Assembly: GCA_046563655.1 (NCBI GenBank)
Contig: CM102283.1
Span: forward strand, 6,076,001 to 6,140,000
Source: Yuukianura sp. NJ FZ-2021
Taxonomy: Eukaryota
DNA length: 64,000 nucleotides
Reading direction: 5' to 3'
Part shown: piece after piece, positions 14,082 to 57,148 of the stretch
Numbering within the stretch: the first letter of the stretch is position 1
Layout of the letters: the number at the start of each line of letters is the position of its first letter
Notes under the pieces: model-generated
Databases searched by the model: none
Told to the model about the DNA's origin: nothing
What the model saw: only the letters and a program-made list of their open reading frames with translations
Made by a program: the position numbers and the translations under genes

Positions 14082-17000
14082 TTACCAAGATTCCTTTGGT
14101 TTAATGTTAACAATAATAGGAGGTCGCATTCCCTTGGTCGGATGAGCTTCCAGTGGACTTTGACCTTGACTTTCAAAAGACACGCGCAGAGGAACTGGAG
14201 TTGAAGCATTTCGGGTGTACCCGCTACTGCTCCCGGCTTGTCTTCCACTATGATGGGCCGTCGCAGGACGGCTTTTGCTTGTACTTGGTCTGGACATACT
14301 GCTGGAGCGCATGCGTGAAGGAACATCGCTGTCATCACTGTTGCTCCTGTTCAGATGCCCATTGACCGCTGCTTGAGCAACGACAGTCTCCTGGTCGTCG
14401 TCACTGTTGAGGTCGTTGTAAATTTGACTAACCATTTCTTGATTGAATTGGTGCCGAAACTGATCAAAGATGCTGCGTGACCGTGATTGGTCGGATTCAC
14501 TTCCATCTAAATCTTGTGACTGAACGGACTCTCTGCCAACTTCTTCTTCTTCCGATTCTTCACTTTCTTCATCCGAATCTTCAAAGGAGTCTGAACTCTT
14601 AGCTGACACGCCTTTCCGAAGAATGTATGGATTCTGAGTCAAGTGTTTGTCAGCATTGAGGCGAGCATGGAACTGGTTCAGAGCGGCTCTGTCCATTGCA
14701 ATCTGGGTACTTCGGTCACAAATTTCTACCCAGTGTTCATTGTGAGCCATAAACCGCTCTGTTCGAACTCTGTCTCGCCATACATCGTTATATTCCTAGA
14801 AAAAAAAGATTTCATAAAAATTAAGCCAAAAGACAAACAAACTTTGACTTTTCTGAGAATTTTGTGCGGTTTACCCCAAAAACTGCAAAGATTGCTTGTG
14901 CCACTTCGCGTAATTCTGCACATTCAGAACGGATAAAACCAAGCACCAGTTCTGACACGGTCGTTTTTTCAATTAAGTAAGTTCTGGATTTAGTGTGAAT
15001 TGACATTCGATAGAGTGCATAAAGTAGTTGGAGGCGGATGTCTGTGTCGAGTGCTGGAGTACGACCAAGGTCAAGCATAATGTCCAGAATGCCTTCTTGG
15101 ATTAAGAAATCTGAACAGCTTGGTTCACTTCCGCAGGTTCCCAGGAATACAACAACTTCGAGCAGTAGAGCTTCTTGGACACTTCGTTCATCTGAAATCA
15201 AATTCAAAATATGAAAAATTTTGAAAATTTTGAAATTTGGATTTTAGAATTTCACCTCCAGCGTGCGTTCTTATCCTTGGTGGTGGACGAGTAAGGACAT
15301 TTCGAATATACTTTAGTAGTTGATATCCTTGGAGAAGTTCGCAGAAATCGAGATCAGGCAAAGTCAAGTTTGAAAGTGTGCCGAGACATTCGACGACAAA
15401 TTCTGGATGGCTTTTGTCCCTTATGGATGCAACAATATTGGTGACTAATTCTGTAAACAGAACTTGTGTTGGTCCTTGATGTGTGGATATTCTTCGAATG
15501 ATTTTGACTAGAAGCGGATCCTGACGCTGGATAGCCACTTTGACCATTCGTGAGAGACGATTGTTGGCGCACATCACCATGGCACATCGTTTACTTGCGG
15601 CTAAATTCAAAAGCAAAGCGGCCGTTTCCATCTGAAATCCTCCTCCCGGAGTCACAACCTTTGCAATTAACTTAAAAAATACACAAAAATCAAAATTATT
15701 CAAATTATAAACTTTCAAAATTTCAGAATTTTCAACTCAAGATCAAAGGATTTTAGAAACTTACCTTCGGTATGATGTCAGCTCCAGCAAACTTTGAACG
15801 AACTTTGAAATCAAGCGAAATGTTGTACAGAGTCAAAATGCAATTTCCCTCAAATTCAGCATCCTCTGGAAAAAAAAGTTATTACAACTTACAAGCAAAA
15901 TGGAGATGCCACGCCACAATGACAAAATCGCATTCGCTTTAAAAAAAAACAAGTTTTTTCTTTTGGATTTACCAAAAAGTACATTGAATTTGTTGAGAAT
16001 GCCGTGACGAATCATTTTGAATCTCAGTTTTGTTTTAAAACTGAGATTGTAGTACAAGGAGACAAGGCTTAGAAGAAGGTCACGCGGTGTCGTTTCTTCT
16101 AAAAATCGTATAGTTTGTTCAACTATTTTCATGTCAATCATTTCTTGTACTGATTCATCATAGCAAGACAAAGTCAGCAGGAACGAAACAACAACCGTTA
16201 TGAGTTTGACATTTGACCTCTCCAGAGTCATCATCAGTTGCTGCACGAAACTTGTCGTTTTCAATTCTTTTGTAACAACTGCAGACTCCAGCATGTTCTT
16301 CACTATTTCAAAGGCAGCTGAAATAGAAAATGTTTTGTGAAATGCTAAAGTATTATAACTTTTTAACCAAAATTCTTCAAAATTTTGAATTCAAACGTGT
16401 GTTCTAACCTGCCAAAAGTGGATCTTGTTTTCTCCTTAATTCGGCCATTTTGACCTGCATTTTTTCCAAATCGGAGCGATGTTTCGGCGTAGCCGTTTCT
16501 GGATCATCAGCAAGTTCTTTCCGAGCACACAACTCGCCCATCCATTTGTCGTAGCGCGTTAATTCAAAGTCAATTACATCCAGTGTCACTGGAATGACTT
16601 TGTTACTGGTCAGAGCTGGATGAAAATCATGAAATCTTGTGAAGGACAGAATGACATTGAGCAGAATTGAAGTCAACTCCATCGATTTTCTGTAGTCCTC
16701 TCGGAGTGTTCGAAAAACAGCATTTAGCGCAGTATCTAAAAGTTTCATCATCATATTTTGATTTAGATCCATTGTTTTGAAAAAAAAATTAGGAAAATTT
16801 ACCATGATTAAAAACGGTGACCAAATTTTCTGAAGAATTTGTTAGCTTCCATAAACATCGACCTCCCTTGATCTTGTCCTGGAGTTCTTCATATAGCAAT
16901 TCAATGTACAACTCCAGGCTGTCCATTTTCACATCTTTCATGTCATCATTGTACACAGATTCATCATCTTCAAAGCATTCGGGAAACATCGTCACAGGTC

Positions 17001-17460
17001 GGTTTTCTCCGTCCAAGGTCAAAGTGGCCAGGCCATTGCGATCGTATTTCCGAGTTTTTAGAACTTCTAGAACCGTCACCACTTGTGGTATCAAATCTTC
17101 TGGAATGAATGGACATTGTTCCAAAATATCTTCGGTTATGGTTCGCAAGTTGGCGTCAGTTGTCAATCCTTCCAATCGGATCAACTTCCGGAACTCCTAG
17201 AAAAAAAAACACACAATTTTCAAAACGTACATTAGTAAAGGCTAGACATGTTGTGTGTATATCGCACTAACCTGTGTATTATCTTCGATGATGTCGCCAT
17301 ACGGTATTCCTGCAACAGAAATTTCAATTTCTCCACGGATTACCAAAATCCTACGCCGGGGATGCGGTTCAAACCGAAGTGTTTTAAAAGTGCGTGTCAC
17401 TACTTCCCGGTCTCCATCTTTGGATCCGGACAATTCAAATCTTGGTCGCAAGTTTAACAT
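14082..17460 (-). CDS. Kap3: Kinesin-associated protein 3 (KAP3/KIFAP3)-like, divergent, armadillo repeats
   Basis: Exons encode KAP motifs: LIRLEGLTTDANL, YIELLYEELQDKIKG, LREDYRKSMELTSILL, IDFELTRYDKW, YNLSFKTKLRFKMI, QDPLLVKIIRRISTHQG, EFVVECLGTLSNLTLPDLDF, LLLEVVVFLGT and FEQSGLWL-region/AHNEHWVE. It ends in an acidic, Ser-rich tail. A further 3' exon near 13.6-13.8 kb cannot be excluded. Confidence 0.8.
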
Positions 17461-20289: not shown

Positions 20290-23200
20290 TTACTGCAACG
20301 ACGATTTTTTGGAAAAGCTTTGAAGACTAATGCTTGAACTGATGGCACTCCCACTAGTACTTGCAACTGGTCCACTTCCGTCTTCCATTGAACTTCGTTT
20401 AGTATCTTTCCCGCCAGTCAAATTCTTCCAGATTCTGGAGGGTCCGCTAAGACCATGACTACTTCGACATACTTCCAATTCGGCCATGGCCAGTGACAAC
20501 TGATGACTCAAATCATCATTCCGACACTCCGCTTCTGCCAATGCGATTTTCGTTTTGGCCAATTCGTTTTCCAATGGTTTCAGAACATCCTCTTGTGTCG
20601 GCTGGGGACTGCCTAGGCCAGTTGATCCAGGACTGGAACCACCCGACACTACTTCCCCGTTCATACGTTCCTTGTTTCCAGCAATTTGCAGAGCAGTTGC
20701 CACAAAAGAAGCACAGTTTTCACACAAATTCGATTGAAAGAAACTTGATCGCTCTCGAGATTTCTTCTGCTCGCCTTCCAACTCCGAGCTCAGATTCGTA
20801 CAAATCTGAAAATTAAACCAGCAACGGTGAAAGAAAAACGTAATGAAAGCATAAAACTTGAAATTTTATTCAAAATTTCGAAATTCAACACTCACTCTTT
20901 TGTATTCAGCGATTATAGTAGTCTTTTTCTCGGCTTCAGTGTCGTACATCTTCACTTCACGTTGAAAAAGTTCCTTGACCTGGAAAACAATTCAAAATTG
21001 TAGTACACATTTCAAAAAATGGAAAAGAGAGACTAAAGTTTTACCGAATTCGTTTCTTCTTTCAACTTTTGATTAAACTCTTCAATTTCGCGAAGCGCCG
21101 TTTTGGTTTTCCCTAACTCCTCTTCCACATGGGCCAAAGTTTCTTCTGCTGTTAGCTTCCCAAGCACCAAGTTTGTAATCATTTGCTCCGTACGTAACAT
21201 ATTCTCAATCAGCATTTTGTTTTCCTTCTGAGCCCGTTCTAACGGATCCACATAATTCCTCTCTTGTTCCTTTATTGCCAGGTACTCAGCTTCATATCGC
21301 TTCAGTTTCTTGACTCTTGTCGCATGAGCATACTTCATATGCTGAGCAGTCACCTCAGGGTTTCTATATTTCTTCGGTAAAGTAATTCGGAAGAATTTGA
21401 GAATTCCTTCGAAGTCAAGCATCAATAAATCCTTTCTTGAAGCCTATCACAAAACATCAATGTTCTATAATAAGAATAACTCAAAAGTTTTTGGAGGATT
21501 TTGTAAATTCTTACCATGAGAAGCGCAACGGCAACCTGGAAAAGCACCTTCATTCCATCGAGTAAAAAAGAGTCCAGTACACGAAAGACGAATATAAGTG
21601 GAAACTTGGCTGTGTAAAGCGTAAGGAACCATTGATTGGCATACCTGAAAAAAAAATATGAAATTATGAAAAGTTTAAATAAAGTTATAGATTCATTGTG
21701 GATTTCTACTTACATGTGGGACTCGATACCCAATTCTTGAAAGTGAGCCCAAAGCTCTGGAATTTGATCCTGGAACAACAGTTAGTTTGTTTTGAACTTC
21801 GAACTTCCAAAAGTATTGTCGAATGTAAACTAAGGCTAACCTCGACGAGTCTATCTAACTGATAAAGTTTTAGGCGGAGATTTTCGAATCCATCACGGTA
21901 AAGATCTCGGAACTCATAGTTGAACATGATTCGTACAAGGAGACAAAACGCCTGTTCCTCTGGCATCTGAAAATGTAGTAAAATTGAAAATTATGAATAA
22001 CTCTATTGAGACTCGAAGTTGAGAGTTGTACCTGTAAGAGCAACGCAGCCGCAATAAAGCTGATTCCCTGGCAGTAACCAACTTCAGCATCATATATAGC
22101 ATAGCCTTTGGATATTTTGTACAATTGTTCTTGTCCAGTTCCACCGGACTCACGAAAGTAATCGTTGGCCGGAAAAGTTCGCGTGATGTCTCGTAAAATT
22201 ATTTCTTCATTCGGACATTCCTTCGTAAGCAAAGTCCTGTAGGTGTCCATCATTGCATTGTCATCATGACACCCTGACAGTCTCAGCCAGATTTCTCCAC
22301 GCACGGTATCTAAGATCAGATTTCACAAAATTTTGTCTGTCGTAAGGCTACATACTATATTACACACAACTATACAATTTATAATAAATGAAATCCTACC
22401 TGGAATTCCGTTTCTAACAAGCGCTGACAGTTGTTTCGGACGAGTTGTAGCCATTGGTGGCCAATTGGAGACAAGCTCACTCCAAGAAGCTAACTGCTCA
22501 TCACTGCAGTGTTTTGAAATTTCTCCCATTCCGCTTTGGAGAGGCTCATCATCATCTTGTTAAAAATTAATATAACATATAAATCTAAACTTTTTCGTAT
22601 GAAGTTGAATTAGACTGAGGCTGTACTCACCCGAATCTTGTTCCTCGTCTTTGGGAGTGTCCAGGTCAATTGAGTTTGAGCGAATGAATGAAGTAAAGTT
22701 AAGGTTAAAGTTAGCACGACTGCGATCAACTTCCCCTTTTGGCGTATTGCGTATCACCTTGTATAACACTTCTCCATTCTTTGTGCCCTCAATCTGGAAA
22801 TAAATCACGTTTAGGATAACGCAGAATTGATAATTTCTGACAAAAAGGAATCTGGAAACTTATTATTTTACCTGTTGCAGAGACAGAAGGAATTGTTGAG
22901 TAAAATGATATTTGCGAACCAATATCCAAAATCTTTCAGTAGATGGGTAAACCTTGGCTTCTGTTTCCAACACAAATCGGATTGGTTCTTGAATTCCCTG
23001 CACACAAAGAACGATTTACATTTGAGCACTGAAAAATGACATAAAAGATGTGTTTAGCGCTAACCTTGATTACAAGATCTACGGCCACTGTGAAGAAGAC
23101 GTGGGACTCCTTTGGAGTCTCGTGGTTCAGAGATTCAAAAGCAGGATCATTGGCATCCCACTGCCCCGTGATAACATAAGTCTTGCCTCCTTGACTTTGA

Positions 23201-24529
23201 GAACCTATTGACCAGGACAGCATCTCAACAAGTTGCATATCTGAATGGCGGACACGTCTTCCAGGACTCAGAAGTAAACCAAAGCATCGTTCAACTAATA
23301 AGTCTTCTTGAGGGTGCGGAAGTTGCTGGACAGTGAGGACAATGTGTTTCGGCACAAAACTCCGGATTTTAAAAACTCCTTTATCACGCGGGACGGAACT
23401 GTAGTTTCCCTAAAGAAATTAACAATTATAAGAAAAGTTGAATCTTTTTGCATTTGCAAATACTTTGAAGTAGTTTTGCAAATTATAGGCAGAGACCTTG
23501 CCGTCGTCTTCCTTCAGTTCCAGTGATACTTCAAACAAAACATCAGTTGTGGGTAACGAGTCACCGCTACCATCAGAAGTGGTCGATTTTTCGCCAGACG
23601 CTGTAAGCGAAATACTTCCTCTAGACGGTTGACGAGAAGCGGATTTGGAGGGAGACGAAAAAGCTCGAGCAAAGGTTGCAAAAACTCGTCCAACCTGAAT
23701 TAAAAACAAGTATTCCGTTAGTACTTACAATCCTGACGCTTAGAATTGTTTTAAAAGCTTACCGCTTCCGGAACATCACATCTGAAAACATGACACTGAA
23801 AGATGGCCTGTTCAAGGGTATCTCCATGCGAGCATGTAAATGCAAAACACTCCCAATCCGGCGTACCAGATAGACCACGAGCGAAGAAAATGATTTGACT
23901 AACTCCAAACCGACTAATTTCCAGCTGATTCTCTTCTTCGTAAACGCTAAAACCAAAAACAATAGTTTCATTGTTGATTTAGATCTTATAAGCGGGAAAA
24001 TGTTAATCTAGGTAAATTATATCAAGTTACATAACACTCCCATCGCAATACAGTGGAACAGATACGGAAACTTGAATCAAATTATCAATTGGTTGTTTAT
24101 TCAGAAAGCCCATTACGCGGTGAATTTCTTGTTCACTTCTGGGTTCCTGATAAGAAAGAAAACAAACGCTAGAAGACAATTTTTGAATTGAAAATGAAAT
24201 ACTCTCACTTGAACAGTTGCAGCACCAAGGTATGAAATACAGTGAAATATCGTAAAGTCTTCTTCATACTGTTCCAAGTCATCATTCGCGGATGGAACTA
24301 CATCTGCTGGTGGATTCGGTATTTCATTGGTCGTATCATCCATGGATTCTTTAGTAAGTTCCGTCTTCGCTGGACTAACGGAAGTTGAGTCGTCTGTAAC
24401 AGCTATACCGCTGTCGTTTTCCTGCCCACGTTCTTTTTCATCTATTATATTGCTTTCCAGGATTTTCTTTTCGGACCCACTTGAATTGGCATCTTCCGTT
24501 TGTAGTAATCCAATGGCGTCGGACTCCAT
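20290..24529 (-). CDS. RABGAP1: Rab GTPase-activating protein 1 (GAPCenA/RABGAP1), PTB + TBC + coiled coil
   Basis: PTB start (ISYLGAATV). Middle domain ERCFGLLLSPG...DMQLVEM...FFTVAVDLVI. TBC domain with R-finger ILRDITRTFP and Q-finger GYCQG. C-terminal coiled coil ELAKTKIALAEAECRNDDL. Multi-exon. Confidence 0.92.
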
Positions 24530-26179: not shown

Positions 26180-26348
26180 CGATCGTCATAGCCCTTCAAA
26201 CTTCCAATCCGAATCTCCTTTTCCTCCTGTGGTGAATCGACAAAACTTTTTAAAAAAACGTAATTTAAAAAAAAATTAGAAAATCAAAATTAAAAGAAAA
26301 GATTTTTGAATTCGAGAATTTCCTAACAATTTTCTATTTTTGCAGAAA

Positions 26349-26995
26349 ATGCAAGCTGTGATTGTCTTGGCCTTGGTGTCTGCGGCTTATGCCTACCCAC
26401 AATATGGTGGCTACGGAGCCCCAGTCCCTCCAGGAGCTTATGGTGGATACGGAGGTGGATACGGAGGTGGTTATGGTGGCTATGCTCCAGGTTACGCCTA
26501 CAATCAAGGACAACTAGATGCTGGAGCATACCAATCTGGAGCCGCTGCTGGAGGAGTCCAAGCCGCTCAAGGATCTGCTGCCCAGCTCCAGGCCTCCAAG
26601 GCTGACTACGGAGCTCAAGGCTCAAGCGGATATGCTGCCGCTGCTGGCCGAAATGCTGGAGCTTCCCAGAGCTACGGTGGAAAGTACGGAAGCAGCCAGA
26701 CATACGGAGAGAACTATGGTAAGAGCGATGCCTATGACAACAGCTACGGAGCTGCCCAGGGTGGAGCTCAGGGATCAGCACATGGCTCAGCCGCTAACTT
26801 GAATGCCGCCAACGCCCAGGGATCCAACTATGGAGCCTACGGAGCCAACCAATACGCTGCAGGGGTAAAACCATAGTCACTTACTAAATAGAAATTCAAA
26901 CATAGCGGGTCATTAATCGATTACTCTTACCATTTTAGCAAGGAGTTCATGCCGCAAACGCCGCTGGAGCTGCTGGACCTGGAGTTGTTGGTTAA
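26349..26995 (+). CDS. Secreted Gly/Tyr/Ala-rich low-complexity protein (cuticle or eggshell structural type)
   Basis: Signal peptide MQAVIVLALVSAAYA followed by (GGY/YGG) repeats. Exons 26349-26864 and 26939-26995 (QGVHAANAAGAAGPGVVG-stop). AATAAA at 27141. Confidence 0.8.
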
Positions 26996-27298
26996 ACATA
27001 CCGAAGAAACTAAGCATCGCTGTTGTCCCCCTATTTCCTTCCACAATCATCGTTCTGTTCTTTCTGACCTCAAAATATTCTTAATTCTTACATTTGGTTT
27101 TCACTTTTCTCGGCCTTCTCTGTAAATTGGAACTGAAATTAATAAATTCAATTTTCTACCCAAACAACATCAGACAAAATTTATTCAGATCGGAAAAGTT
27201 TTAGGAGTTACAAGTTTAGTTGAGTTTTAGATAATCCTCAGCAGCATCAGAAGTATACATTACGGTTTGTCTGATGGAAATAGTTTTGTGTCCAGGAT

Positions 27299-28020
27299 TC
27301 ACTTCCCTTCCAATTGTTTGTACAACTTCGGGACATAGTCATCCCATTCAGCCTGATAGAAATTCCCTGCAATTGCGTTGCCAAGATTATACTTGTCAGC
27401 GAATTTCTGGATCGAAAACTTCCCACGGTGCTCTCCAGATCGATTCGTGAGCCGCTTTTCGTCGAATTCAATCCGTCCCGAAGGCTGCTCGAAGACCAAG
27501 AAAACGTAGCGGTGAAGCCCGGTTCCTTGTGGTGGACCTGATCCGACATACTGGAACATAGAAAACGTTTTAGCAAAGTGAGAGACCGTTTTACCAGGAC
27601 CTGTTTATCGCATACTATGACATTTACCTCAGAGAGCACAGTTCCTTTCTCAACGGCGCATCCTGGGATGTTTCCTACCAACCTTGACAAATTAGCACAG
27701 AAAAGTTTAGTTACCTAATAATAATAGTTTTAAGGATTTCGAATATTTTTCTAAGTTCCGTCTAGTTACTTCATCTTCGACACTCACCAATGGTGCCATT
27801 CACGGAACTTCGGGTCTTTTCGACTCGGAGCATCCGGATCAGTCATGCACAAGACGTAGAACTTGCTGGAATCCGCATGCCATGACACTGTTGGTTGTTT
27901 ATGAACCTGTGTTGGTGTCAAAACGTTTCCATAGTCGGCTTGAACAGCTTCATAATGGACGCTGATTGTGCCAATAGGTGCCGTTTTAATTACTTCTGGA
28001 ACAACCTTATGCTTCTCCAT
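27299..28020 (-). CDS. PEBP1: Phosphatidylethanolamine-binding protein (PEBP/RKIP family)
   Basis: Motifs [49 protein letters not shown] and [19 protein letters not shown]. Three coding exons. The frame stays open upstream to an acceptor at about 28099, so an N-terminal extension is possible. Confidence 0.93.
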
Positions 28021-28728
28021 TATGGCCTTTAGCAAATCTCTCGATGTAAGCCCGTGAACCTTGGTTGAAAAGTGCCTCGCAGTAGGATTAGAAACAATCT
28101 GAAATTCAAGTTAGCAAAAGCAAATAACAAAAGTTAATCGATTCGACACAAACTTGACCAAGTGAAAATGGAGAAATGATATCGTAGCTTCACAGCTGAT
28201 CAAGTAAACATTGATCAGAATAAACAATAACCCACCGAGTTATGATTTATGGTCAATGACCTCTGCTGTATCGCCCAAGAGATATTTCTTGTCAAATTCT
28301 TTTGTACAAGTTGACCTTGACCTCTCCCCAACACCAAGACAGATACTGGAATCCTCAATCTTGCCAAACTCATCCTCTTTCACCTTGTGTTTTTGTTGTT
28401 ATGCTATTTTTTATCTTCCACAAAAAATGTCATCTCTCCACCTAAGTATTTGCCGCTCTCAAAAATTCTCAACATCCTTATTACAAACTTTTACATTTTA
28501 GTATTTAACATTTACATAAATTAAATAATTTTCTTCCAATTAACAACATTGAACAAGTCAAATAAAAGTTAATTTCAAAGTTATCCATTAGGAAATTTAG
28601 TTTTAATACTTTCAAGATTGAAAATGTGTCGTTATTTACGTAAAAGTTGTTATCACAAAATAATTTGGATAAATTTTAAGTTGTACTTTGAAAATATTTG
28701 AAATTTGACGGTAGTCCAGAGGTCAAGC

Positions 28729-29384
28729 TCAACAACGACGACCTTGTGGTGGGCAGCAGCTCATGGGCATACAGCAGCCTGGTGGTGGACAGCATTGATT
28801 TCCGTTTCCACCTTCGTCTTCCTCGCAGCAGATCACTGGAATACAGCACACCTTCGGTTCCTTCTTCCGTGGTGGAGGCGGGATCTCTGCAAAGAAACAA
28901 AACCGAATTAGGTCAAAGGTCAAATCAAATCAAAAAGCCAAGAAATTAGATACTAAAACTCACCACACACGATGTTGACTGGGGGCAACTGGAAGACACA
29001 ACATTGACCTTGCTGTGGAGGCGGCTTCGTCTTGATCACGATTGCTGAAAAAATAAAAAGTCAGAATTAAAATCCACAATTTCCAGTAAAGTGTGAAACT
29101 ACGGTAACCCAAAATGTCCATCGTCAAGTCCACTTACGAGGCTGAAAAAAAAAGACAGACAATCAGTAACATACCAAGTGAAAGGTCAATACAGGTCAGT
29201 GACCCTAGACTTACGCAACACAATGGAGGACAGCAAGGAGGCGGGCAGCATGGGGGTCTATATTGGACAGAATTACAAAATCAGTACACCACATGATTCC
29301 TAGGAGGTAGCAGTAATTGTCAATTGAAACTTACGGGCAGCACCCATTGTTGTTCATGCTCATTCGTCCACCGCCACAAGACAT
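28729..29384 (-). CDS. Cys/Pro-rich small protein, copy A (111 aa), 5 exons including a 4-nt micro-exon
   Basis: Exons 29384-29335, 29257-29215, 29141-29138, 29044-28964 and 28886-28729, all GT-AG, total 336 nt. Protein: MSCGGGRMSMNNNGCCPPPCCPPPCCPPLCCPPIVIKTKPPPQQGQCCVFQLPPVNIVCEIPPPPRKKEPKVCCIPVICCEEDEGGNGNQCCPPPGCCMPMSCCPPQGRRC. Confidence 0.85.
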
Positions 29385-29476
29385 GTTGATTGAGAAGACC
29401 GAAAGGTCAATGAACTTTGGAATTTGTAGGAGAAAAGGAGGGAGAGACGTCTGATCGAGGTGAAGGCTAGAGAGAG

Positions 29477-29582
29477 ACTGAGGCGGGAAAAGTGAAAATC
29501 CGGCCTTTTATAGATTTTGTGAGGTCAATGACCCCGGTGCTTTTCGCGAGGAGTAACTCTTTACTCTTTCTCACGTTGCCCC
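29477..29582 (-). promoter_or_regulatory. Core promoter of Cys/Pro gene A
   Basis: TATAAAAG (29512-29505), Inr TCAGT (29481-29477), IR1 AGGTCAaTGACCC (29522-29534), and an upstream block shared with copy B that contains CGTGAGAA (29575-29568). Confidence 0.7.
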
Positions 29583-30030
29583 AGTTTGAGATCGCGCAAT
29601 TGCAAAACAATAGCTAAATTTCCAAAACGATAGATTTTGATTAAAAATTCAAGTTTTTAAACATTGAACAAGCATTTCCAGCATTATTTTCCATTACTTT
29701 TAATTAATTCGTACAATCATAAACCATTTTTAATTTTTATGGCATTATCAGTTATCATTTTAATAAGTTGCCAGTTTTTGAATACCAAAAACACTCTCAT
29801 TCTAATTCTCGACATTACTGAAACGTTTCAAAAACTATTGCAATTAATTAAAAATACAATCAATCATTTAATAACTTCCAGCAACAGATTAAAAGTTGAA
29901 GAGTTTTATTTCTTTTCGAATTGAATGATATGATTTTTACGTAATAGTAATAGTTATGGTATCACAAAACAATTTGGACATTTTTTAAAGTTGTACTTTA
30001 AATATATTGGGAATTTGGTGACGGTCAAAC

Positions 30031-30724
30031 TCAACAACGACGAGCTGGTGGTGAACAGCAGCTCATGGGCATGCAGCATCCAGCAGGCGGACATGGTGGA
30101 CAGCAGTTGTTTCCACCCTCTTCATCTTCGCAACAGATCACTGGAATACAGCACACCTTCGGTTCCTTCTTGCGTGGTGGTGGTGGGATCTCTGCAAAAA
30201 CATAAAGCAGAATTAGGTGCAAAGTCAAAGGTCAAATTCTGATTCAGGTCATTATACAAAAACTCACCACACACGATGTTGACCGGTGGCAACTGGAAGA
30301 CACAACATTGACCCTGCTGTGGAGGCGGCTTCGTCTTGATCACGATTGCTAAAATTGAAAATCAGTATTAGTTTTACTCAAAAAGTAAATTTTTTAGTTG
30401 TAAAATCGTCGATACACCAAACCAAACGCTGTCAATCAGCGCGTGTAGTTGACTTACGTGGCTGAAAAGTCAAAACAAACACTGATTAGTAAATGAAACC
30501 ATTATTATTGAACAAGAGGTCATCAGAGGTCATTGACCCCAAACTTACGCAACACATTGGAGGGCAGCAAGGCGGTGGGCAGCACGGAGGCCTGCAACAA
30601 AGAACATGACAATCAGACATTGACATTTTCGAAATCAAACTACTGTTGGTCATGTCAACATTGTCGAAACTTACGGGCAGCAGCCATTGTTCATTCCACT
30701 TTGACGTCCACCACCACAAGACAT
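30031..30724 (-). CDS. Cys/Pro-rich small protein, copy B (112 aa), 5 exons including a 4-nt micro-exon
   Basis: Exons 30724-30675, 30591-30549, 30461-30458, 30348-30268 and 30191-30031, total 339 nt. Exon sizes 50/43/4/81 match copy A. The central region is amino-acid identical with synonymous changes. Confidence 0.85.
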
Positions 30725-30813
30725 GTTGAATGAGAAGACCGGAGGGGTCAATGAACTTTACAAAAAAAAATGAGGAGGGAACGACGTGTATTCGGTGTGA
30801 ACGATGGAGAGCG

Positions 30814-30895
30814 ACTAAACCTCGCGCGTAAGAAATCACTTCCTTTTATAGCGGTTCTCAAGGAGTAACTTATTACTCCTTCTCACGTCGCCCCA
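30814..30895 (-). promoter_or_regulatory. Core promoter of Cys/Pro gene B
   Basis: TATAAAAG (30850-30843), Inr-like TTAGT (30818-30814), and the block aggagtaacttattactccttctcacgtcgcccca shared with copy A. Confidence 0.7.
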
Positions 30896-31142
30896 ACACG
30901 GAGTCCGAGAATCTTAAAACAATAAGTTTACGTTTTCGAAAAAAAAGTAGCAAAATTTTCAAAATGATATGTTTCTTGATCTTTGCAAACGTTTGATAAT
31001 TTTTTTGCTAGATGTGCTGGACTATCTTTATCTCGGATTGGGTTGACGTGAAAAACTTTTCCAGCAGAATCGGATAACAAATCGCATGATCCAATCTCTG
31101 AGTTCTAAAATATGGGAGTGGATTTCCTGGAGAAAGTGTTAG

Positions 31143-31858
<716 letters not shown>

Positions 31859-33876: not shown

Positions 33877-36800
33877 ATGGTCACTCGGAACGGATTCTTG
33901 TCATTGGTCACAATGCCGTGGATCCTGCATTATTCGTGCCTTCTGCTACTAATTTCTTTTACAACTCCAACTCAAGGTATGACAAAAGCAAACAATTTGA
34001 GCATCTTCAAACTGTCTTCAAATCAAACAAATTGTTTCGTTTTGGGTCAAAGATGTCTCCCTTCTGCATTTTCACACCTTTGCGATTTATGGCTACCATA
34101 AACGCTTCTAGTTAGAGCCCCACCGTTGACAACTTTCACAATTGTCAATTGAGTTCTCATCTTTCCAAATCTCCCAATTTCAAAAAAGAAAAAATTAACA
34201 CAAAAGTCAGTCCTCGTCTTTACCTTTTAGACAAAACTTTTAGATTTCAGAAAATTTATCGACAGGTTTACAACTCTGACGCCTTTTCCAAAAACTTCTA
34301 AAATTTATAACCATTGTCTCCGAAAAATTGGAAAAAATTCATTCCAGGTGAAATTTATGGCTGTCTTGAAAGTTATTTTGTTCAGCTTTGACTTTTGGCC
34401 GAAAGATTTTTGTTCTTTGAGCTTTGGCACAAATCTGATCGTATGGAATTTCACCTTCGGCAGGATTTTCATTAACTGAAACCAGAACTATGAATTTAAC
34501 ATGTAAATGATTCAGATTCGTTGACCTTTGACCTTTAGCTCAAATTTGATTTTGTGGAAATTCACCTCTGGTCAGATTTTCATTAGCTGAAATTTAGTTA
34601 TGGACTTAATGTTGTCAATGATTCAGAGTGGTTGAGATTTGACCTTTGACCTTCCCTGGGGAATGTCACGGGAAGAGATTATGAACGCCTTGGTTCCATA
34701 TGTCCAAAGTTCACACGTTTCTGGAAAATGTTAGGCCTGTTCCTGGTAGAGGGTTGAAAAAAGGCATAGGGTTTGCATGTGTCCGGGCGACGGACGGGGT
34801 CGTGGGATCCAAAAAAACGAAGAACACGGAGCAGATGTGTGCAGAGATGGGGTGGTGGGGTTTTGGGGGCGGGGTTGTAGACTTCAGGAGCCACAAGTGT
34901 TTATTCAAGGGCCCCCTACGAATTCTGTAGCCCTTAGAAGTACTTTGTACAGAGCAGAGTACAGAGTCCTGTGTGTATCCCCTCACTTTAACTCTAAGTA
35001 CCCTGTACCCTGCTGCCTAGACACAAAGAATGGCCGTTGGACTTTGGAAAACGTTCGATATTTTCATCTGCATCTGCTCCTCCAAGCTTACATTCCTACA
35101 AACTACACAACAAAAAAGGAGCCAACCACCCCATGGATTAGATGGTTCTGGTCACACGCATAGTAACTTCTGTACAATTGTGGACAGTTCTGTACAGTAT
35201 TCTAACCGGAAAACCGGAATGACCACCTTATCATTCCATACCATAAACTATTCAAAATTCAAACGGTCACTCTTCCCGGAATTCTGAAAAAATGAAATTT
35301 TGAAATGATCTCTGCGGAAATTCAAGTTTTGTTGATGCTTGGATGTTGGATGACGCATGCGCAGAACATGCATCGCTGCTTTTTTGTTGCTGATAATCAA
35401 AATATGAAAGTTAAAAATACGAAATTTGAAACTTGGAGCTTAGGACATGTTAGCGAAGAAACCTCCATTTGTCCTTCATCACTTGACTTTAGAAAAGCGT
35501 CTTACGTCTGGATTCTTTGTGTAAACATTAGGTTGAAGCGATGTCAAAAACATATCATCCGAGGACATGATACTTTTGGTTGCTCACTTTATCTAAAACT
35601 GCTCAAATTAAATAAACTATTAAACTTACAACTTATGGTGTTACATACATGTGAGGGCACAACTCTAATTCTGGAAGGGGGAACATTAATTACTCTGGAG
35701 TTGGCAAAATACCAAACAATTGACTCAAGTCTATTGCGAACGTGGGACAAAACTTTATGACTTAACGTCAATATCCAAATGGCGTGACCCCTATCATTGT
35801 TTTACTTTAAAAAAAAAAGAGTAGGACTTTGTTTTTTAATTTTAAAGTGCGTTTTAATGGATCTTCTGGAAGATGGTGATTTCGGAGACTTCCGCTACTT
35901 GAGAGTATCCATGGGAACGGAAGACACTTCCTGTTTCCTTCAACCCTATCATTCTATGACCTTCCTCATTTCAAACTAGCTTTTCAACTATGCAATCAAA
36001 AAATTTATATAACACATTTTTTCAAAATGTTGATGGAAAATGAAATTTTGATTTCTTTTATTCTAGGTCTCTCGTGCTCTCCAAATCCATGTAAGAATGG
36101 AGCTCATTGTGTTCCAGGAAGTCGCTACGGAGGAGACTCATACTGCGAGTAAGTTAATTTTTTAGCGATTCAATTTTGAACAAGTTAGCGGTGCTTTACT
36201 TTAAACAAACATTAGTTAAAGGCAAGTGCTGATGGAAATGTTCAAATCCACAATGTCACTATTACTACTACGCTTCAGATTTTGAGCAGTTGCCCTTTGA
36301 CATTTTTAGTACTGCCGACGTGTCATTTTCTGCATGTGCAGATTTTTATTGCGAAATGTCAAAGTGACATTCGACATTAAGAATTGTGCCGATGAAAGCA
36401 AAAAATAGAAACTTTAGGAAATCGGGAAGAAATTTTGAACATTGGACTTTCTTCAACAATAAATTCGTCCGAAGCAACAAATTTTCTAAAAAATTCATAA
36501 TTCGAATAGAAAAAAAATGCACTCCCAAATAACTTTTCCTGCTTATGCACACTGACCACATGAAACTTCTTGCTCATGCGTACTGACCGAAGGCCAGTTT
36601 CTGTTTGTGCGCACTGGACGATGACCACGCAATGTTTATATTTTGGATTAAGTTGTGGTTATTGGTGACCTCGGATGGTTGATGATGCACAAGTAGGCAT
36701 CGGAGGTCACATTGGTTTTATCTGTAAGGGCCCATGTGCAAAGTGTCTGTTTCCTGAGGGATATGCACCATTGTTGGTGTTCTGGTGGTGGCAGAGGGTG

Positions 36801-39800: not shown

Positions 39801-42800
39801 TCTTTTCAAAATATCTACAAGTAGCTGACCTCATTCCCAATTTTTGGAAAAATAGTAATTTTTTCCCGCGTTTTACAATTTACACACGCTTCCCATACCG
39901 CCGTACCACCACACCACATCCGCTTTCCTGTGTTACAATCCGCAAAAACCGAGTTTTTGGAAAAGCTTAATCTGGATTTGTGGAAAAATCTCAAATTTGA
40001 AAATTGCGATTTGATGAGAAAGTGCTGATAACAGCCAAAAGTTTTCAAAAAATTCAAATGCTAAAGAAAAACTACGCCGTCAAAACGGAAATTTTTCTGC
40101 AACTAACTGAAATATTTGGCTTTCAAAAACGACAAAAACGACAAGCAAATTTTTTTTCGAAATGCATTCAAAAAATATGTATTTTCAAATTTCAGATGCC
40201 CAAATACCTATGTTGGAGAATACTGCCAGTATCCAAATCCGTGTCACTCTTCACAAAATCGCTGTGAACACGGAGGATCGTGTAAACCCGTGCTGAAACC
40301 GAAAGCGGCGCCATCTTTTGCTTGTTCCTGTCCAGTGGGGTACACTTCAACATTTTGCGAACTGGAACTGTCCAATGCCTGTCAGTCCAATCCATGCTCC
40401 AACAATGGCTTATGTAAACTGTCAACACTGGAAGACTACACTTGCGCATGCGGAAATGGTTACCGTGGAAAACACTGCGAGACGATTGACCAGTGCTCGA
40501 TCAGTGGCAGTTCACCTTGCAAAAACGAGGGAAACTGCGTCCCAGATGATTCGATGCGTGGATATCATTGTGTCTGCGACGAAGGGTTCAAGGGCCCTAC
40601 ATGCCTTTCTGACATCAACGAATGTGACAACAAACAAAACTGTCTCCACGGATCTTGCCAAAATGTTTACGGATCATACAAGTAAGAAAAAATCAATTTA
40701 AAAAAATCTCTTTAAATTTTCAAATATTTTTTCTGAACCCTCCAAAACGCCACAAAATTTCCCCGCTACTTTGAAATGGCCGTAATTTCGAAAAATCTTT
40801 TCTTGCCGCCAAGACAATCCGTCATTACCGGTAATGTATCCGGCTTCACTTTCAGAGCCATGATTGGTTTCCGGTAATCAGAAAAAGGCGGGAAACGTAA
40901 CCAAATTACACAAAATATAAAATGTACAAAGTGGTTCAGAATAATTTTGTGTTTTAAGTCACAATAGCGCTGATTCGGAACAATTTCTAGTAAACAAGGG
41001 TTGATTGGGGTGAGTTTGATGTGAGATCACGTGCCTCCAGGGGATTTTTAAAAAGAAGAGGGAACGTTTGAATTCCATTTAACGTAGGTTACACATAGCC
41101 TAGTCAGAAGAAACGTGAGGCCATCATAATTGAAAGGAACGAGGAATTAATGTTCGTTGGGTTTGTTGCAAAAGGGGTTGGTGAAGGGGACGTTGATTAT
41201 TCATTATTCATAAGGGACCCTACAGAGCCCTTAAAGGGGCCAAAGGGCCCTCTCAATTCAACAGATGCTTTCAAACAATACGGAACCGTTAGTCCTAGGT
41301 TGTTAAGTTCCAACGGCTCGCTCTCGTTTCCCTTTAAATTGAAATCGGTGTAGAGTCATTGTCTGGTGTGTTGGAATTGAGTAATGATCAGTTGGCCTTT
41401 GACCTTTTGTGGCCCTGCTTAATTGAGAAACCACGCAACTGACCCTAAACTGTACGCAAATGACCCTTAAGTCCCTCTATCTGTTTAAGGAATCACGGTT
41501 CCAAGACTTTGTCATTAAGGGACCCCCTCCAAGAACAATCTTTGGCCCTTCATTAGACATATTTGAAAAAGGGCGCTCAAAATCAAACAGATCATTTATT
41601 TTCAAAACCATTAAATCGCCGGTCGTGCTTGAATTTGAGCTCATCCGTTCCCTCAAGTTGTTCGCTCCGGGAAAACTCACGACGGCCACGGAATGTCGCT
41701 TTTCCGACTTTTGAATTTTTCCGCGCAGTTTCCAATTGGCTCCCATTGTTACTCTTGTTCCTTTGTTTTCGTCAATGAACAATTTTTAAATTCGGAACCA
41801 GAAAATAGCTGGGCTAAAGAAACGTTGTTCCAAGTTATTATGCTAACAATGGAACCTCATTTTCACAATCCAAAAACAAGCATTCCTCAAATTGCACCTT
41901 CAGGCTATACTTTAAAAGTCGCAAAATTCGAATTTAAACTTCACAACTTATCGAATTTTTGAATTTTGTTTTTGAAATTTTAAGTTAACTTGTTCAAATA
42001 CAATTTCTTAGGATATTTTTGGTTACGAGGTTGATGAACCGTGTCATTTTCGATTCCATTTTGTACTTTTCCTTCATAAAAAAGTTAATTAGAGGGTAGA
42101 GTTTTTACTGCCGGTGGAGCGTATACTAGGTAGTTACATAAGATGACTGAAGATGATTCAACCCCCCCCCCTTCTGTGCCACCCCCCCCCCCTATCCACA
42201 TCACCCCCCCCCCCTCCTGTTACGTGGTGTGTATACGGTAATACTGGCGTGTAGGTTAATGTTATTGCTTTGTTTCCAGGTGTAAGTGCTTCGAAGGGTA
42301 CACTGGGAAGACGTGTTCAGAGAAATTCATTCCTTGTGAGCCCTCCCCCTGCCAAAATGGCGGAAGCTGCAAGAGAACAGGCAACCTCACCTATGAGTGT
42401 ACCTGCCCCAGAGGTAAGCACGTCCATTATTCCTTCAAAATCCATTTTCAAAAAACTTTTTCAAAAAGACCCCACTGTACTTTCAAAAAGTCCCCGAAAA
42501 GGGACCAGGGCCCTTAACAAATTCAATGAGCTCCAATTCCCTCTGAAGTGAAGATGAAAAGCTCCCTTGAAGGAGTAGATCCAAAGTGCTCTAGCGTTTC
42601 TGCTCATGCGTGAGCGTAATTGGAGATGATTGGAACGAACGTTCATTATTCGACTGCAAACGCGCGTTTTATGTTCGAAAAGTCTTGGTTTACCCTGAGC
42701 TAAGCCCGAGAAAACATGAGCGCTTGTGTTCAAATTTTCTTGACATGAGCGTCTCTTTTCAAAAATTTGAGAGGTTAACATGGACCTTGTGTTGAAAATG

Positions 42801-56346: not shown

Positions 56347-57148
56347 AAAAGTTCAAATGTCTAGCCCCACCCATTTAATATTTTTAAATTCAATTGTAAT
56401 TGTTTATAAAATCGTAGTAAATAATGCCAACGTAGTGACTTCTTAAGCAAATTCTTTAGTAAGGTAGATAGATGTTTTTAAAAGGTAAAAATTATAAGAA
56501 GCATTTTCAACCTAAGATTAGTGAATCTATTGTTGCGACATTTTCAAATCGCTGTTATATTGATAATTAAGTTAATTAAGATGACGTTTATATGTCTTTC
56601 AACTAAATATCTATGAAGTTTGTTCAAATTGGTTGAAGAAATGTTAAGTAATGTACTAGTTTTGAAACAAGCCCGAGTATCAAGGTAAAAATTGTAAAGA
56701 ATAAACAAATTAATTCGTTTAGAATAAAATTGAAAACGTTATTTTAAACTTAAGTAATACCACGTGTGTGTACAAGCACATAGTACGTACTCTTAATTCT
56801 AAAGCAAAGTTGTTAAGCAGCCTTGCTGCCTTAAAACTTTCATCTCGATAAGAGTACAACGCTATACGCTACGTACTAAAAAGTGTGAAGCATAACTTAA
56901 GTTTCTTTTTTGTTAAATTCTTGCAATTTTTAAAATCTCAATTTGTGTTGTGTTTTGTGTCTTCTCTTGCGGTTGCGGGAAGAGGACAAGGAGGGATGTC
57001 GTCTTCGTCTTCCTTTGTGTTCCTTTTTAACTGGAGTGGAATGTTATTATACTGAATTTCAATTTTAGTAAATCACTAACCGATTTATTTAGTTTTTTAC
57101 TACACATATGGTTGCTGCACTACACTTAATCTGAGAAGTTACGGGAAA

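What the first reader, a model, noticed from the sequence alone, without database searches (positions are those of the whole stretch)
28729..30724. Tandem pair encoding an unrecognised intracellular Cys/Pro-rich protein family
Seen: 111 and 112 aa proteins with no signal peptide. Copy A has 23 Cys (ten CC doublets) and 27 Pro. CCPPP repeats flank a core of about 50 aa that is identical between copies despite synonymous changes and diverged introns, which indicates purifying selection. Known: CC/P-rich small proteins include sperm-tail Mst84D/87F-type proteins, keratin-associated or cornification proteins and metallothioneins, but I do not recognise this core. Inference: a lineage-specific disulfide- or metal-crosslinked structural protein, or a heavily palmitoylated one, probably missed by automatic annotation.
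Basis: partly seen in the sequence, partly recalled or inferred. Interest (0 to 1): 0.75.

Follow-up and report, generated by a model that had tools for sequence, protein, structure and literature searches.

The report
Tandem cysteine/proline-rich springtail-type gene pair
Two neighbouring, intact genes encode small cysteine- and proline-rich proteins with no export signal; their only detectable relatives are uncharacterised springtail proteins, and their function is still unknown.

Summary
There are two minus-strand, five-exon genes, 28729-29384 and 30031-30724. They encode 111 and 112 aa, with 23/24 Cys, 27/28 Pro and 10 CC doublets each. A 52-aa core is identical despite 9 synonymous changes, and overall dN/dS is 0.11. 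Both copies need a 4-nt microexon that cross-species homology validates.

No Pfam family matches. Database relatives are few, and the only named ones are "hypothetical" proteins of the springtails Orchesella and Folsomia.

New result: in those relatives the Cys/Pro module is the N-terminal half of a ~200-aa protein. Its ~80-aa C-terminal domain is almost invariant and weakly resembles the tubulin-binding repeat of cilia/sperm proteins FAM166/CIMIP2. That domain is absent from the window, so the pair looks like stand-alone, truncated paralogues.

Both genes carry TATA and initiator elements. They hold 5 of the window's 8 perfect nuclear-receptor IR-1 palindromes, the ecdysone-receptor type, and no metal-response elements.

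The most likely function is a cytoplasmic, disulfide-crosslinkable structural protein under hormone control. This is inferred, not shown. Expression and tissue stayed untestable.

The parts
29335..29384 (-). Copy A exon 1 (ATG at 29384-29382)
   Evidence: GT donor follows. No upstream ATG lies between the initiator-like site and this ATG (sequence read).
29215..29257 (-). Copy A exon 2 (CCPPP repeats)
   Evidence: AG/GT borders. tblastn match to P0003.
29138..29141 (-). Copy A exon 3, a 4-nt microexon (CCTC)
   Evidence: flanked by tttttcag and gtaagt. It restores the frame and recreates the same residues as the Orchesella homologue at this junction.
28964..29044 (-). Copy A exon 4 (conserved core)
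   Evidence: 85% identical to P0003/P0004 over 26 aa. 96% nt identity to copy B.
28729..28886 (-). Copy A exon 5 including the stop codon
   Evidence: tblastn against P0003, joint E 1.3e-25 with exon 4.
30675..30724 (-). Copy B exon 1 (ATG at 30724-30722)
30549..30591 (-). Copy B exon 2
30458..30461 (-). Copy B exon 3, a 4-nt microexon (CCAC)
   Evidence: flanked by cttttcag and gtaagt.
30268..30348 (-). Copy B exon 4 (conserved core)
30031..30191 (-). Copy B exon 5 including the stop codon
29505..29512 (-). Copy A TATA box. An initiator match (TCAGTC) lies 24 bp downstream at 29476-29481.
   Evidence: Initiator consensus TCAKTY as listed in PMC1913499.
30843..30850 (-). Copy B TATA box. A near-initiator (TTAGTC) lies at 30813-30818.
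   Evidence: aligned with copy A. TTAGTC misses the consensus at one position.
29522..29534 (.). IR-1 palindrome (AGGTCA-N-TGACC type) 10 bp upstream of the copy A TATA box; copy A only
29404..29416 (.). IR-1 palindrome in the copy A 5'UTR, 20 bp before the ATG
   Evidence: Conserved with copy B.
30745..30757 (.). IR-1 palindrome in the copy B 5'UTR, at the position homologous to 29404
29193..29205 (.). IR-1 palindrome at the 5' end of copy A intron 2, with a further half-site at 29183-29188
30527..30539 (.). IR-1 palindrome at the 5' end of copy B intron 2, at the position homologous to 29193, with a further half-site at 30517-30522
   Evidence: family D4.
28910..28922 (-). Direct repeat of two TGACCT half-sites spaced by 1 bp (DR1-like) in copy A intron 4. 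Partly kept in copy B, with half-sites at 30229-30234 and 30246-30251.
29551..29566 (-). Conserved upstream palindrome GAGTAA-N4-TTACTC with an adjacent ACGTG (29572-29576). The copy B counterpart is 30863-30878 with ACGTG at 30884-30888.
   Evidence: Function unknown.
28602..28607 (-). Copy A candidate polyadenylation signal (ATTAAA), 122 nt after the stop codon
   Evidence: The first ~100 nt downstream of the stop align well between the copies.
29905..29910 (-). Copy B candidate polyadenylation signal (AATAAA), 121 nt after the stop codon

Best explanation
SHOWN. The window holds two intact, tandemly duplicated, five-exon genes under purifying selection. Each has its own TATA box, initiator-like site, 5'UTR and polyadenylation signal. 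They encode 111 and 112-aa proteins that are about 21% Cys and 24% Pro and have no signal peptide or membrane segment.

They belong to an undescribed protein family whose only named members are springtail (Collembola) proteins. In 8 of the 9 database relatives, the Cys/Pro module with its conserved core is the N-terminal part of a 123-220-aa protein. An invariant RREKRW motif and a nearly invariant ~80-aa C-terminal domain follow it. The window copies stop just before that point, and the C-terminal domain is nowhere in the 64 kb.

INFERRED.
(1) The pair are stand-alone paralogues of the N-terminal module that have lost the C-terminal domain.
(2) The proteins are disordered. They most likely act as crosslinkable structural or matrix proteins, hardened by intermolecular disulfides between their many vicinal Cys pairs, in the manner of keratin-associated, cornified-envelope or sperm-tail Cys/Pro proteins.
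(3) Transcription is driven by a nuclear receptor dimer, most plausibly the moulting-hormone receptor EcR/USP. It would act through IR-1 palindromes kept at homologous positions in both copies.
(4) The tissue is unresolved. Kinship with a protein carrying a FAM166/CIMIP2-like tubulin-binding repeat points to the sperm flagellum. The TATA + initiator + hormone-site promoter points rather to a somatic, moult-linked tissue.
For: Gene reality:
- Canonical splice sites at all 8 introns.
- dN/dS 0.106, and 0 non-synonymous against 9 synonymous changes in the 52-aa core.
- Exons are much better conserved than introns.
- TATA, initiator-like and polyA signals at matching positions in both copies.

Family:
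- tblastn of P0003 against the window gives E 1.3e-25 and 8.8e-24. Copy A is identical to P0003 at 73 of 101 aligned residues.
- An exhaustive HMMER search of 1.84 billion representatives with P0003 gave 3 hits at E<=0.001: the query itself, one true relative (P0006) and one spurious repeat protein.
- The C-domain search gave 8 of 8 candidates. The named ones are only Orchesella cincta and Folsomia candida.
- The C-domain has 52 invariant columns across 8 proteins.
- The C-domain is absent from the window. The best match is 15 aa at E 0.84 on the other strand.

Crosslinker reading:
- Composition, and 3 CC-x3-CC units per protein.
- AlphaFold2 confidence for the module in a relative averages 23-28 per 10-residue block over residues 1-140.
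- The nearest language-model look-alikes of P0003 are keratin-associated protein 5, SPRR, LCE and NICE-1 clusters, scoring 0.76-0.83, which is lead level only.

Hormone control:
- The pattern RGKTCANTGACCY has 8 distinct sites in the window, against 0.06 strand matches expected. Five of the 8 lie in the 2.4-kb locus.
- Two pairs of sites sit at homologous positions in noncoding DNA that has otherwise diverged.
- Flanks differ between sites, so this is not a transposon.
- An inverted repeat of AGGTCA spaced by 1 bp binds the EcR/USP DNA-binding domains, and the full-length proteins, more tightly than the natural hsp27 element (PMC1885670, passages).

Sperm lead:
- A profile of the long forms hits only FAM166B/CIMIP2B chains in the PDB: 4 of 4 hits, at E 0.58-2.5.
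- The Atlas structure search independently puts PF10629-bearing clusters first and second, at TM 0.47 and 0.45; 96% of the first cluster's members and 26% of the second's carry PF10629.
- FAM166 proteins carry tubulin-lattice-binding PYG repeats (PMC10973386, passages).
- Springtail sperm have an axoneme (PMC7140630, passages).
Against: - No expression data of any kind could be consulted, so transcription of either copy is not shown.
- The FAM166 link is not significant by itself. E is 0.58 or worse, TM is below 0.5, the 4 PDB chains are orthologues or isoforms of one protein, and Pfam scans of all 8 long forms found no PF10629. In any case the link concerns a domain that the window genes lack.
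- The look-alike scores of 0.76-0.83 are in a range that shuffled proteins often reach.
- The half-site TGACCY is enriched across the whole window (123 found, 52.6 expected), so part of the IR-1 signal may reflect a genome-wide motif. Other nuclear receptors could also use these sites.
- Copy B lacks the IR-1 upstream of the TATA box.
- The core's synonymous divergence is lower than that of the flanks (dS 0.32 against 1.09, Fisher p 0.008). Local gene conversion could therefore contribute to the identical core, besides protein-level selection.
- The direction of evolution, domain loss versus gain, rests on parsimony over very few sequences.
Confidence: 0.45

Rival explanations
1. A metal- or metalloid-binding protein: a non-classical metallothionein in which CC-PPP-CC units chelate Cu, Zn, Cd or As. 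This would be relevant to soil arthropods exposed to metals.
For: The proteins are 21% Cys, with 1 aromatic residue and no His. Each has three tetracysteine-like CC-x3-CC units. Springtails are known for metallothionein-based metal tolerance (PMC1913499, abstract and passages).
Against: Neither locus contains a metal-response element (TGCRCNC) on either strand, whereas the Orchesella cincta metallothionein promoter alleles have 4-6 (PMC1913499, Table 1). The proteins contain no C-x-C motif and 0 (A) or 1 (B) C-x-x-C motifs. Pro at 24% is atypical for metallothioneins (my recollection). No metallothionein Pfam family matched.
Confidence: 0.12
2. A heavily S-palmitoylated, membrane-associated scaffold. 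The CC doublets next to hydrophobic residues, and the Cys at position 3, would be acylated and tether the protein to membranes.
For: Several CC doublets sit next to Val, Ile or Phe. A Cys at position 3 is present in both window proteins and in all 8 relatives that begin with Met. There is no signal peptide or transmembrane segment.
Against: Nothing was tested directly. There is no myristoylation, prenylation or polybasic signal to give initial membrane contact (read from the sequence). Most CC doublets are embedded in Pro runs rather than in hydrophobic strings.
Confidence: 0.12
3. Truncated paralogues that act as competitors or modulators of the full-length two-domain protein. They would share its N-terminal partners but lack the C-terminal, possibly tubulin-binding, domain.
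For: The architecture difference is shown. The core is under strong purifying selection, which fits a conserved binding surface.
Against: No long-form gene is known from this genome, and none lies in the window. No partner is known. This reading is compatible with, rather than exclusive of, a structural role.
Confidence: 0.1
4. Non-functional leftovers of a partial gene duplication: untranslated or decaying copies.
For: The copies lack the family's most conserved domain. No annotated protein from this locus was returned by the one search that could have found it.
Against: Both copies keep open frames, all 16 splice sites including those of the 4-nt microexon, and TATA, initiator-like and polyA signals. 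dN/dS is 0.106, with dS about 0.6. Decay over that divergence would have broken at least one copy.
Confidence: 0.05

Closest known systems
Uncharacterised springtail proteins: Orchesella dallaii 122-aa 'unnamed protein product' (P0003), Orchesella cincta Ocin01_17064 (P0004, 202 aa) and, more distantly, Folsomia candida Fcan01_13712 (P0011, 184 aa)
   Same: True homologues. They share the N-terminal M-x-C, the CCPP repeats and the conserved core (IVIKT ... CC-V-F ... PPPP ... CCIP ... acidic patch). Copy A matches P0003 at 73 of 101 aligned residues.
   Different: The long forms continue through more Cys/Pro sequence, an invariant RREKRW motif and a ~80-aa conserved C-terminal domain. The window lacks all of this. 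The Folsomia protein lacks the middle of the core. None has a described function.
Drosophila Mst(3)CGP family (Mst84Da-d, Mst87F)
   Same: Small Cys/Pro-rich proteins encoded by tandemly clustered genes. This family is needed for normal sperm axoneme and nebenkern structure (PMC10645079, passage).
   Different: The defining Cys-Gly-Pro repeat is absent, with 0 CGP in either window protein. No sequence similarity was found. Male-specific expression could not be tested. That Drosophila testis promoters are usually TATA-less is my recollection, not from a call.
Mammalian keratin-associated proteins, SPRR, LCE and NICE-1 (epidermal differentiation and hair proteins), and the sperm mitochondrial capsule protein SMCP
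   Same: They share the composition (Cys and Pro rich, CC-P motifs), small size, lack of a signal peptide, tandem gene families and disulfide or transglutaminase crosslinking. They are the nearest language-model look-alikes of P0003, at 0.76-0.83. SMCP is named from my recollection only.
   Different: No homology. Pfam gave 0 hits for the window peptides and for P0003. Only 1 of 8 long-form relatives gave a weak Keratin_B2_2 match, at E 0.031. These families are vertebrate-restricted, and the conserved non-repetitive core has no counterpart in them.
FAM166/CIMIP2 ciliary microtubule inner proteins (Pfam PF10629, PYG repeat)
   Same: This concerns only the C-terminal domain of the long-form relatives. 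It carries one Y-x-G-x-[IV]-P ... F-x-x-G unit that aligns to each of the three repeats of FAM166B. PF10629-bearing clusters are the top two structural neighbours in the Atlas; 96% and 26% of their members carry the family.
   Different: The match is not significant (E 0.58 or worse, TM below 0.5). There is one unit instead of several. Pfam itself gives no hit. The window genes lack this domain altogether.
Metallothioneins (including the Orchesella cincta mt gene)
   Same: Small, Cys-rich, nearly free of aromatic residues, and cytoplasmic.
   Different: No family match. C-x-C and C-x-x-C motifs are essentially absent. Pro is 24%. There are no metal-response elements, against 4-6 in the O. cincta mt promoter.

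Membership tests
Unnamed springtail Cys/Pro + RREKRW-domain family (Ocin01_17064 / Fcan01_13712 type) | N-terminal M-x-C start, CCPP repeats and the conserved core module | tested here: met
   tblastn E 1.3e-25 and 8.8e-24. Alignment. 73 of 101 aligned residues identical to P0003.
Unnamed springtail Cys/Pro + RREKRW-domain family (Ocin01_17064 / Fcan01_13712 type) | Invariant RREKRW motif followed by the ~80-aa conserved C-terminal domain (52 invariant columns in 8 proteins) | tested here: not met
   No match anywhere in the 64 kb. The best is 15 aa at E 0.84 on the wrong strand. Both proteins stop at ...RRC. The window genes are therefore relatives of the N-terminal module only.
Metallothionein | Sequence match to a metallothionein family model | tested here: not met
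   Pfam: 0 families at E<=10 for the exon 4 and exon 5 peptides and for P0003.
Metallothionein | Cys arranged as C-x-C / C-x-x-C clusters (feature recalled) | tested here: not met
   C-x-C: 0 and 0. C-x-x-C: 0 and 1. The Cys occur as 10 CC doublets per protein.
Metallothionein | Promoter with metal-response elements (TGCRCNC) | tested here: not met
   0 matches on either strand in 28450-29620 and 29800-30960. Consensus and the springtail comparison come from PMC1913499.
Metallothionein | Stoichiometric metal binding | not testable with these tools
   Needs recombinant protein and ICP-MS or ESI-MS.
Mst(3)CGP (Mst84D/Mst87F) | Repetitive Cys-Gly-Pro motif (PMC10645079) | tested here: not met
   0 CGP tripeptides in either protein.
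Mst(3)CGP (Mst84D/Mst87F) | Male-germline-specific transcription | not testable with these tools
   No transcript collection for eukaryotes was available.
Keratin-associated / SPRR / LCE / NICE-1 | Match to Pfam Keratin_B2, Keratin_B2_2, Keratin_matx, LCE, SPRR2 or NICE-1 | tested here: not met
   0 hits for the window peptides and for P0003. 1 of 8 long-form relatives matched Keratin_B2_2 at E 0.031. Atlas feature scores of 0.76-0.83 are lead level only.
FAM166/CIMIP2 (PF10629, PYG repeat) | PYG-type tubulin-binding repeats | tested here: not met
   The window proteins contain no such unit. For the long-form relatives the test is inconclusive: PDB profile hits only to FAM166B at E 0.58-2.5, Atlas TM 0.47 and 0.45, and Pfam 0 of 8.

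The most novel reading that the evidence does not exclude
Springtails run a moulting-hormone-controlled, intracellular crosslinking programme. It would be built from a lineage-specific Cys/Pro module that evolved independently of vertebrate cornification and hair proteins. The module originally served as the N-terminal half of a tubulin-binding (FAM166-like) sperm or cilium protein. In this genome it was released as stand-alone, tandemly duplicated genes driven directly by EcR/USP through IR-1 sites in the promoter, 5'UTR and intron. That would be an arthropod analogue of the epidermal differentiation complex.
Probability: 0.1. Interest if true: 0.7.

Novelty: new variant of a known kind. Interest (0 to 1): 0.42.

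Why it matters
If the genes are expressed, they define an undescribed family restricted to springtails or close allies. Its composition converges on vertebrate hair, skin and sperm-tail crosslinking proteins, but it has its own conserved, non-repetitive core.

The link to a two-domain family with a possible tubulin-lattice-binding repeat gives a concrete, testable entry into springtail sperm or cilium biology.

The dense, conserved IR-1 sites make the pair a compact candidate reporter for ecdysteroid signalling in a basal hexapod.

The 4-nt microexon is a useful test case for gene predictors.

Tried and rejected
- **Pfam.** 0 hits for the two exon peptides, for P0003, for P0004 and P0005 and for P0006. 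Among the 8 long forms there was only one weak Keratin_B2_2 hit.
- **PDB sequence searches.** P0004 alone and the 4-sequence profile each gave 0 hits at E<=10.
- **AlphaFold2.** Models of P0004 (4-row alignment) and P0012 (8-row alignment) had mean pLDDT 32.1 and 42.3. That is too poor for a fold search.
- **Atlas.** The feature search on the C-domain gave no usable hit.
- **HMMER representatives.** The third hit, P0007 (579 aa, internal repeats), was judged spurious from its sequence.
- **Transposon origin of the IR-1 sites.** Rejected, because the flanks of the 8 sites are unrelated.
- **Genes on the plus strand.** The plus-strand ORFs over the locus are the complement of the Cys/Pro codons and were not pursued.
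- **Secreted antimicrobial-type peptide.** Rejected, because there is no signal peptide.
- **Literature.** No paper holds either of the two locus tags Fcan01_13712 and Ocin01_17064. 'Ocin01' occurs in 0 papers. 'Fcan01' occurs in 1 unrelated paper. 'Collembola' + 'cysteine-rich' + 'proline-rich' gave 5 papers, none about such a protein judging by title and abstract.
- **Not possible here.** The full spliced proteins were not submitted to any search or fold tool, so only exon peptides and database homologues were used. No eukaryotic genome or transcript collection was available. Supplementary tables of springtail expression studies were not searched.
Full report
**1. What is there**

The region lies in a eukaryotic window with short GT..AG introns and about 39% G+C. 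On the minus strand there are two five-exon genes.
- Copy A has exons 29384-29335, 29257-29215, 29141-29138, 29044-28964 and 28886-28729. It encodes 111 aa with 23 Cys, 27 Pro and 10 CC doublets.
- Copy B has exons 30724-30675, 30591-30549, 30461-30458, 30348-30268 and 30191-30031. It encodes 112 aa with 24 Cys, 28 Pro and 10 CC doublets.

The third exon is only 4 nt in both copies (CCTC and CCAC). It is flanked by a long pyrimidine tract plus AG on one side and by GTAAGT on the other. Joining exon 2 directly to exon 4, read from the sequence, puts a stop two codons into exon 4. With the microexon, the junction reproduces the residues found at the same place in the Orchesella homologues. The microexon is therefore supported by homology.

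Each copy has its own set of signals:
- a TATA box (29505-29512 and 30843-30850);
- an initiator or near-initiator 24-25 bp downstream (TCAGTC and TTAGTC);
- a ~95-nt 5'UTR without an upstream ATG (read);
- a polyadenylation signal ~120 nt after the stop codon.

**2. More than chance, and under selection**

The duplication unit repeats at 1302-1340 bp. Exons are 76-96% identical between copies, while introns are 42-67% identical over alignment columns.

The proteins are identical at 99 of 110 aligned residues. One 52-aa run is identical and contains 9 synonymous and 0 non-synonymous differences. Overall dN/dS is 0.106.

One caveat applies. Synonymous divergence is lower in the core than in the flanks (dS 0.32 against 1.09; 9 of 35 against 21 of 36 sites, Fisher p 0.008). 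Local gene conversion or nucleotide-level constraint may therefore add to protein-level selection.

There is no signal peptide or transmembrane segment. The maximum 19-residue hydropathy is 0.93 (A) and 0.83 (B), and the N-termini are hydrophilic.

**3. Relatives**

Pfam finds nothing for the exon 4 and exon 5 peptides.

A search of 5.8 billion proteins with the exon 5 peptide, restricted to lengths 91-2000 aa, returned 1 protein out of 11 candidates: a 122-aa 'unnamed protein product' of the springtail Orchesella dallaii (P0003). It returned no protein encoded by the window itself. This fits the locus being unannotated, although proteins under 91 aa were not searched.

Searching with P0003 gave 3 of 13 candidates: the query itself, Orchesella cincta Ocin01_17064 (202 aa) and a 209-aa protein from a 935-bp unnamed contig.

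An exhaustive HMMER scan of 1.84 billion cluster representatives with P0003 found only itself, one more relative (P0006, 207 aa) and one spurious repeat protein.

tblastn of P0003 against the window gives E 1.3e-25 for copy A and 8.8e-24 for copy B. Copy A is identical to P0003 at 73 of 101 aligned residues.

The window therefore most likely comes from a springtail or a close ally. I did not establish the species.

**4. The unexpected architecture**

Three of the first four relatives continue past the Cys/Pro region. They run into an invariant RREKRW motif and then a ~80-aa domain.

Searching with that domain (P0004 residues 124-202) returned 8 of 8 candidates. The named ones are only O. cincta and Folsomia candida Fcan01_13712. 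The rest come from unnamed contigs of about 1 kb, which would fit transcripts, though that is my inference.

Across these 8 proteins the C-terminal domain has 52 invariant columns, while the N-terminal Cys/Pro part varies widely.

The window's 'core' aligns to the N-terminal module of five long forms: P0004, P0005, P0006, P0009 and P0010. It is thus a genuine conserved module, not just low complexity.

The C-terminal domain is absent from all 64 kb. A phosphatidylethanolamine-binding-protein gene follows about 600 bp downstream of copy A on the same strand. Both window proteins stop at ...RRC, roughly where the long forms begin RREKRW.

I infer that the pair are stand-alone paralogues that lost the C-terminal domain. 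The direction of change rests on parsimony only.

**5. What the missing domain may be**

A profile of the long forms hits only 4 PDB sequences at E<=10. All are FAM166B/CIMIP2B, at E 0.58-2.5. The match aligns one Y-x-G-x-[IV]-P...F unit to each of that protein's three repeats.

Independently, the Atlas structural search placed PF10629-bearing (CMI2B-like) clusters first and second, at TM 0.47 and 0.45; 96% and 26% of their members carry that family.

FAM166 proteins are microtubule inner proteins whose PYG repeats contact the tubulin lattice (PMC10973386, passages). Springtail sperm have an axoneme (PMC7140630, passages).

Neither result is significant alone. Pfam finds PF10629 in 0 of 8 long forms. 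AlphaFold2 models were poor, with pLDDT 32 and 42, so no fold search was run. I treat this link as roughly an even-odds lead about the relatives, not about the window genes.

**6. Regulation**

The locus is dense in nuclear-receptor half-sites: 6.9 TGACCY per kb, against 1.7 per kb in the rest of the window.

The 13-bp palindrome RGKTCANTGACCY has 8 distinct sites in the window (14 strand matches, 0.06 expected). Five of the 8 lie within the pair. They are:
- one 10 bp upstream of the copy A TATA box;
- one in each 5'UTR, at homologous positions;
- one at the 5' end of intron 2 in each copy, also at homologous positions, within an intron that is otherwise 57% identical.

The flanks of the 8 sites are unrelated, so this is not a mobile element.

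An inverted AGGTCA repeat spaced by 1 bp is the idealised, high-affinity element of the ecdysone receptor heterodimer EcR/USP (PMC1885670, passages). I therefore infer moulting-hormone control.

Three cautions apply. Half-sites are 2.3-fold enriched window-wide. Other receptors could use the sites. Nothing was tested functionally.

There are no metal-response elements in either locus, unlike the O. cincta metallothionein promoter, which has 4-6 (PMC1913499, Table 1 seen).

**7. Function**

I commit to a cytoplasmic, disordered, disulfide-crosslinkable structural protein.

The grounds are:
- composition;
- three CC-x3-CC units per protein;
- per-10-residue AlphaFold2 confidence means of 23-28 for this module in a relative;
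- look-alikes that are all vertebrate crosslinking proteins: keratin-associated protein 5, SPRR, LCE and NICE-1. Their scores of 0.76-0.83 are at lead level only.

The tissue is open. Kinship points to sperm. This parallels the tandem Drosophila Mst(3)CGP genes, whose deletion disturbs axoneme assembly (PMC10645079, passage). The TATA + initiator + hormone-site promoter points to a somatic, moult-linked tissue.

The rival readings are metal binding, palmitoylation, a truncated competitor of the long form, and dead copies. Each is set out with its evidence in the Rival explanations section. None is excluded except, largely, the last.

**8. Comparison and novelty**

The genes are members, through the N-terminal module only, of an undescribed springtail family. 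No paper in the library holds either named relative's locus tag.

They are not members of the metallothionein, Mst(3)CGP, keratin-associated/SPRR/LCE or FAM166 families. A defining feature of each was tested and not met.

They resemble the Cys/Pro crosslinker class in kind. I rate the finding as a new variant of a known kind, of moderate interest. The genes are real, conserved and oddly built, with a 4-nt microexon, a lost domain and dense IR-1 sites. There is still no expression or functional evidence.

Noticed in passing
window 29138-29141 and 30458-30461 (minus strand): A 4-nt coding microexon is conserved in both copies, with strong splice signals. Without it the frame breaks. It is likely to defeat automatic gene prediction.
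   Followed up: yes
window, whole; e.g. 34522-34534, 34640-34652, 31650-31662, 28312-28323: The nuclear-receptor half-site TGACCY is 2.3-fold over-represented across the whole window (123 found, 52.6 expected). It often occurs as direct repeats 6-7 bp apart. Three further perfect IR-1 palindromes lie at 25500, 43775 and 61098.
   Followed up: partly
window 29551-29576 and 30863-30888 (minus strand): A palindrome GAGTAA-N4-TTACTC with an adjacent ACGTG is conserved about 40-70 bp upstream of both TATA boxes. No factor was assigned.
   Followed up: partly
window 28964-29044 vs 30268-30348, and the 52-aa core: Synonymous divergence in the identical core (dS 0.32) is about a third of that in the flanks (dS 1.09; Fisher p 0.008). 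This suggests local gene conversion or nucleotide-level constraint.
   Followed up: partly
window 26310-26876 (+): An ORF encodes a Gly/Tyr/Ala-rich protein with an N-terminal hydrophobic leader. It has no Pfam match and looks like a secreted structural, cuticle-type protein. An IR-1 palindrome lies about 850 bp upstream, at 25500.
   Followed up: no
window 27247-28110 (-) and 31143-31858 (+): The immediate neighbours are a phosphatidylethanolamine-binding-protein gene (PF01161) downstream of copy A and a homeodomain gene (PF00046). The homeodomain gene is transcribed divergently about 330 bp from the copy B promoter.
   Followed up: partly
window ~40100-56350 (+): A Notch gene: EGF-repeat exons, then LNR, NOD and NODP domains and ankyrin repeats. 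Other genes in the window: kinesin-associated protein KAP (about 14800-17200, -), a DUF3694 'Kinesin protein' domain (PF12473) (22936-23409, -), a tyrosine-kinase C-terminus (1995-2855, -), an adenylate-kinase-like gene (59647-60411, -), a MADF-domain gene (57617-58156, +) and a G-patch gene (63089-63706, +).
   Followed up: partly
relatives P0004-P0006 and P0008-P0012 (no locus DNA held): All 8 long-form relatives carry an invariant RREKRW motif, which is a dibasic, furin-like R-x-K-R site, yet none has a signal peptide. Its role (cleavage, nuclear targeting or tubulin contact) is unexplained.
   Followed up: no
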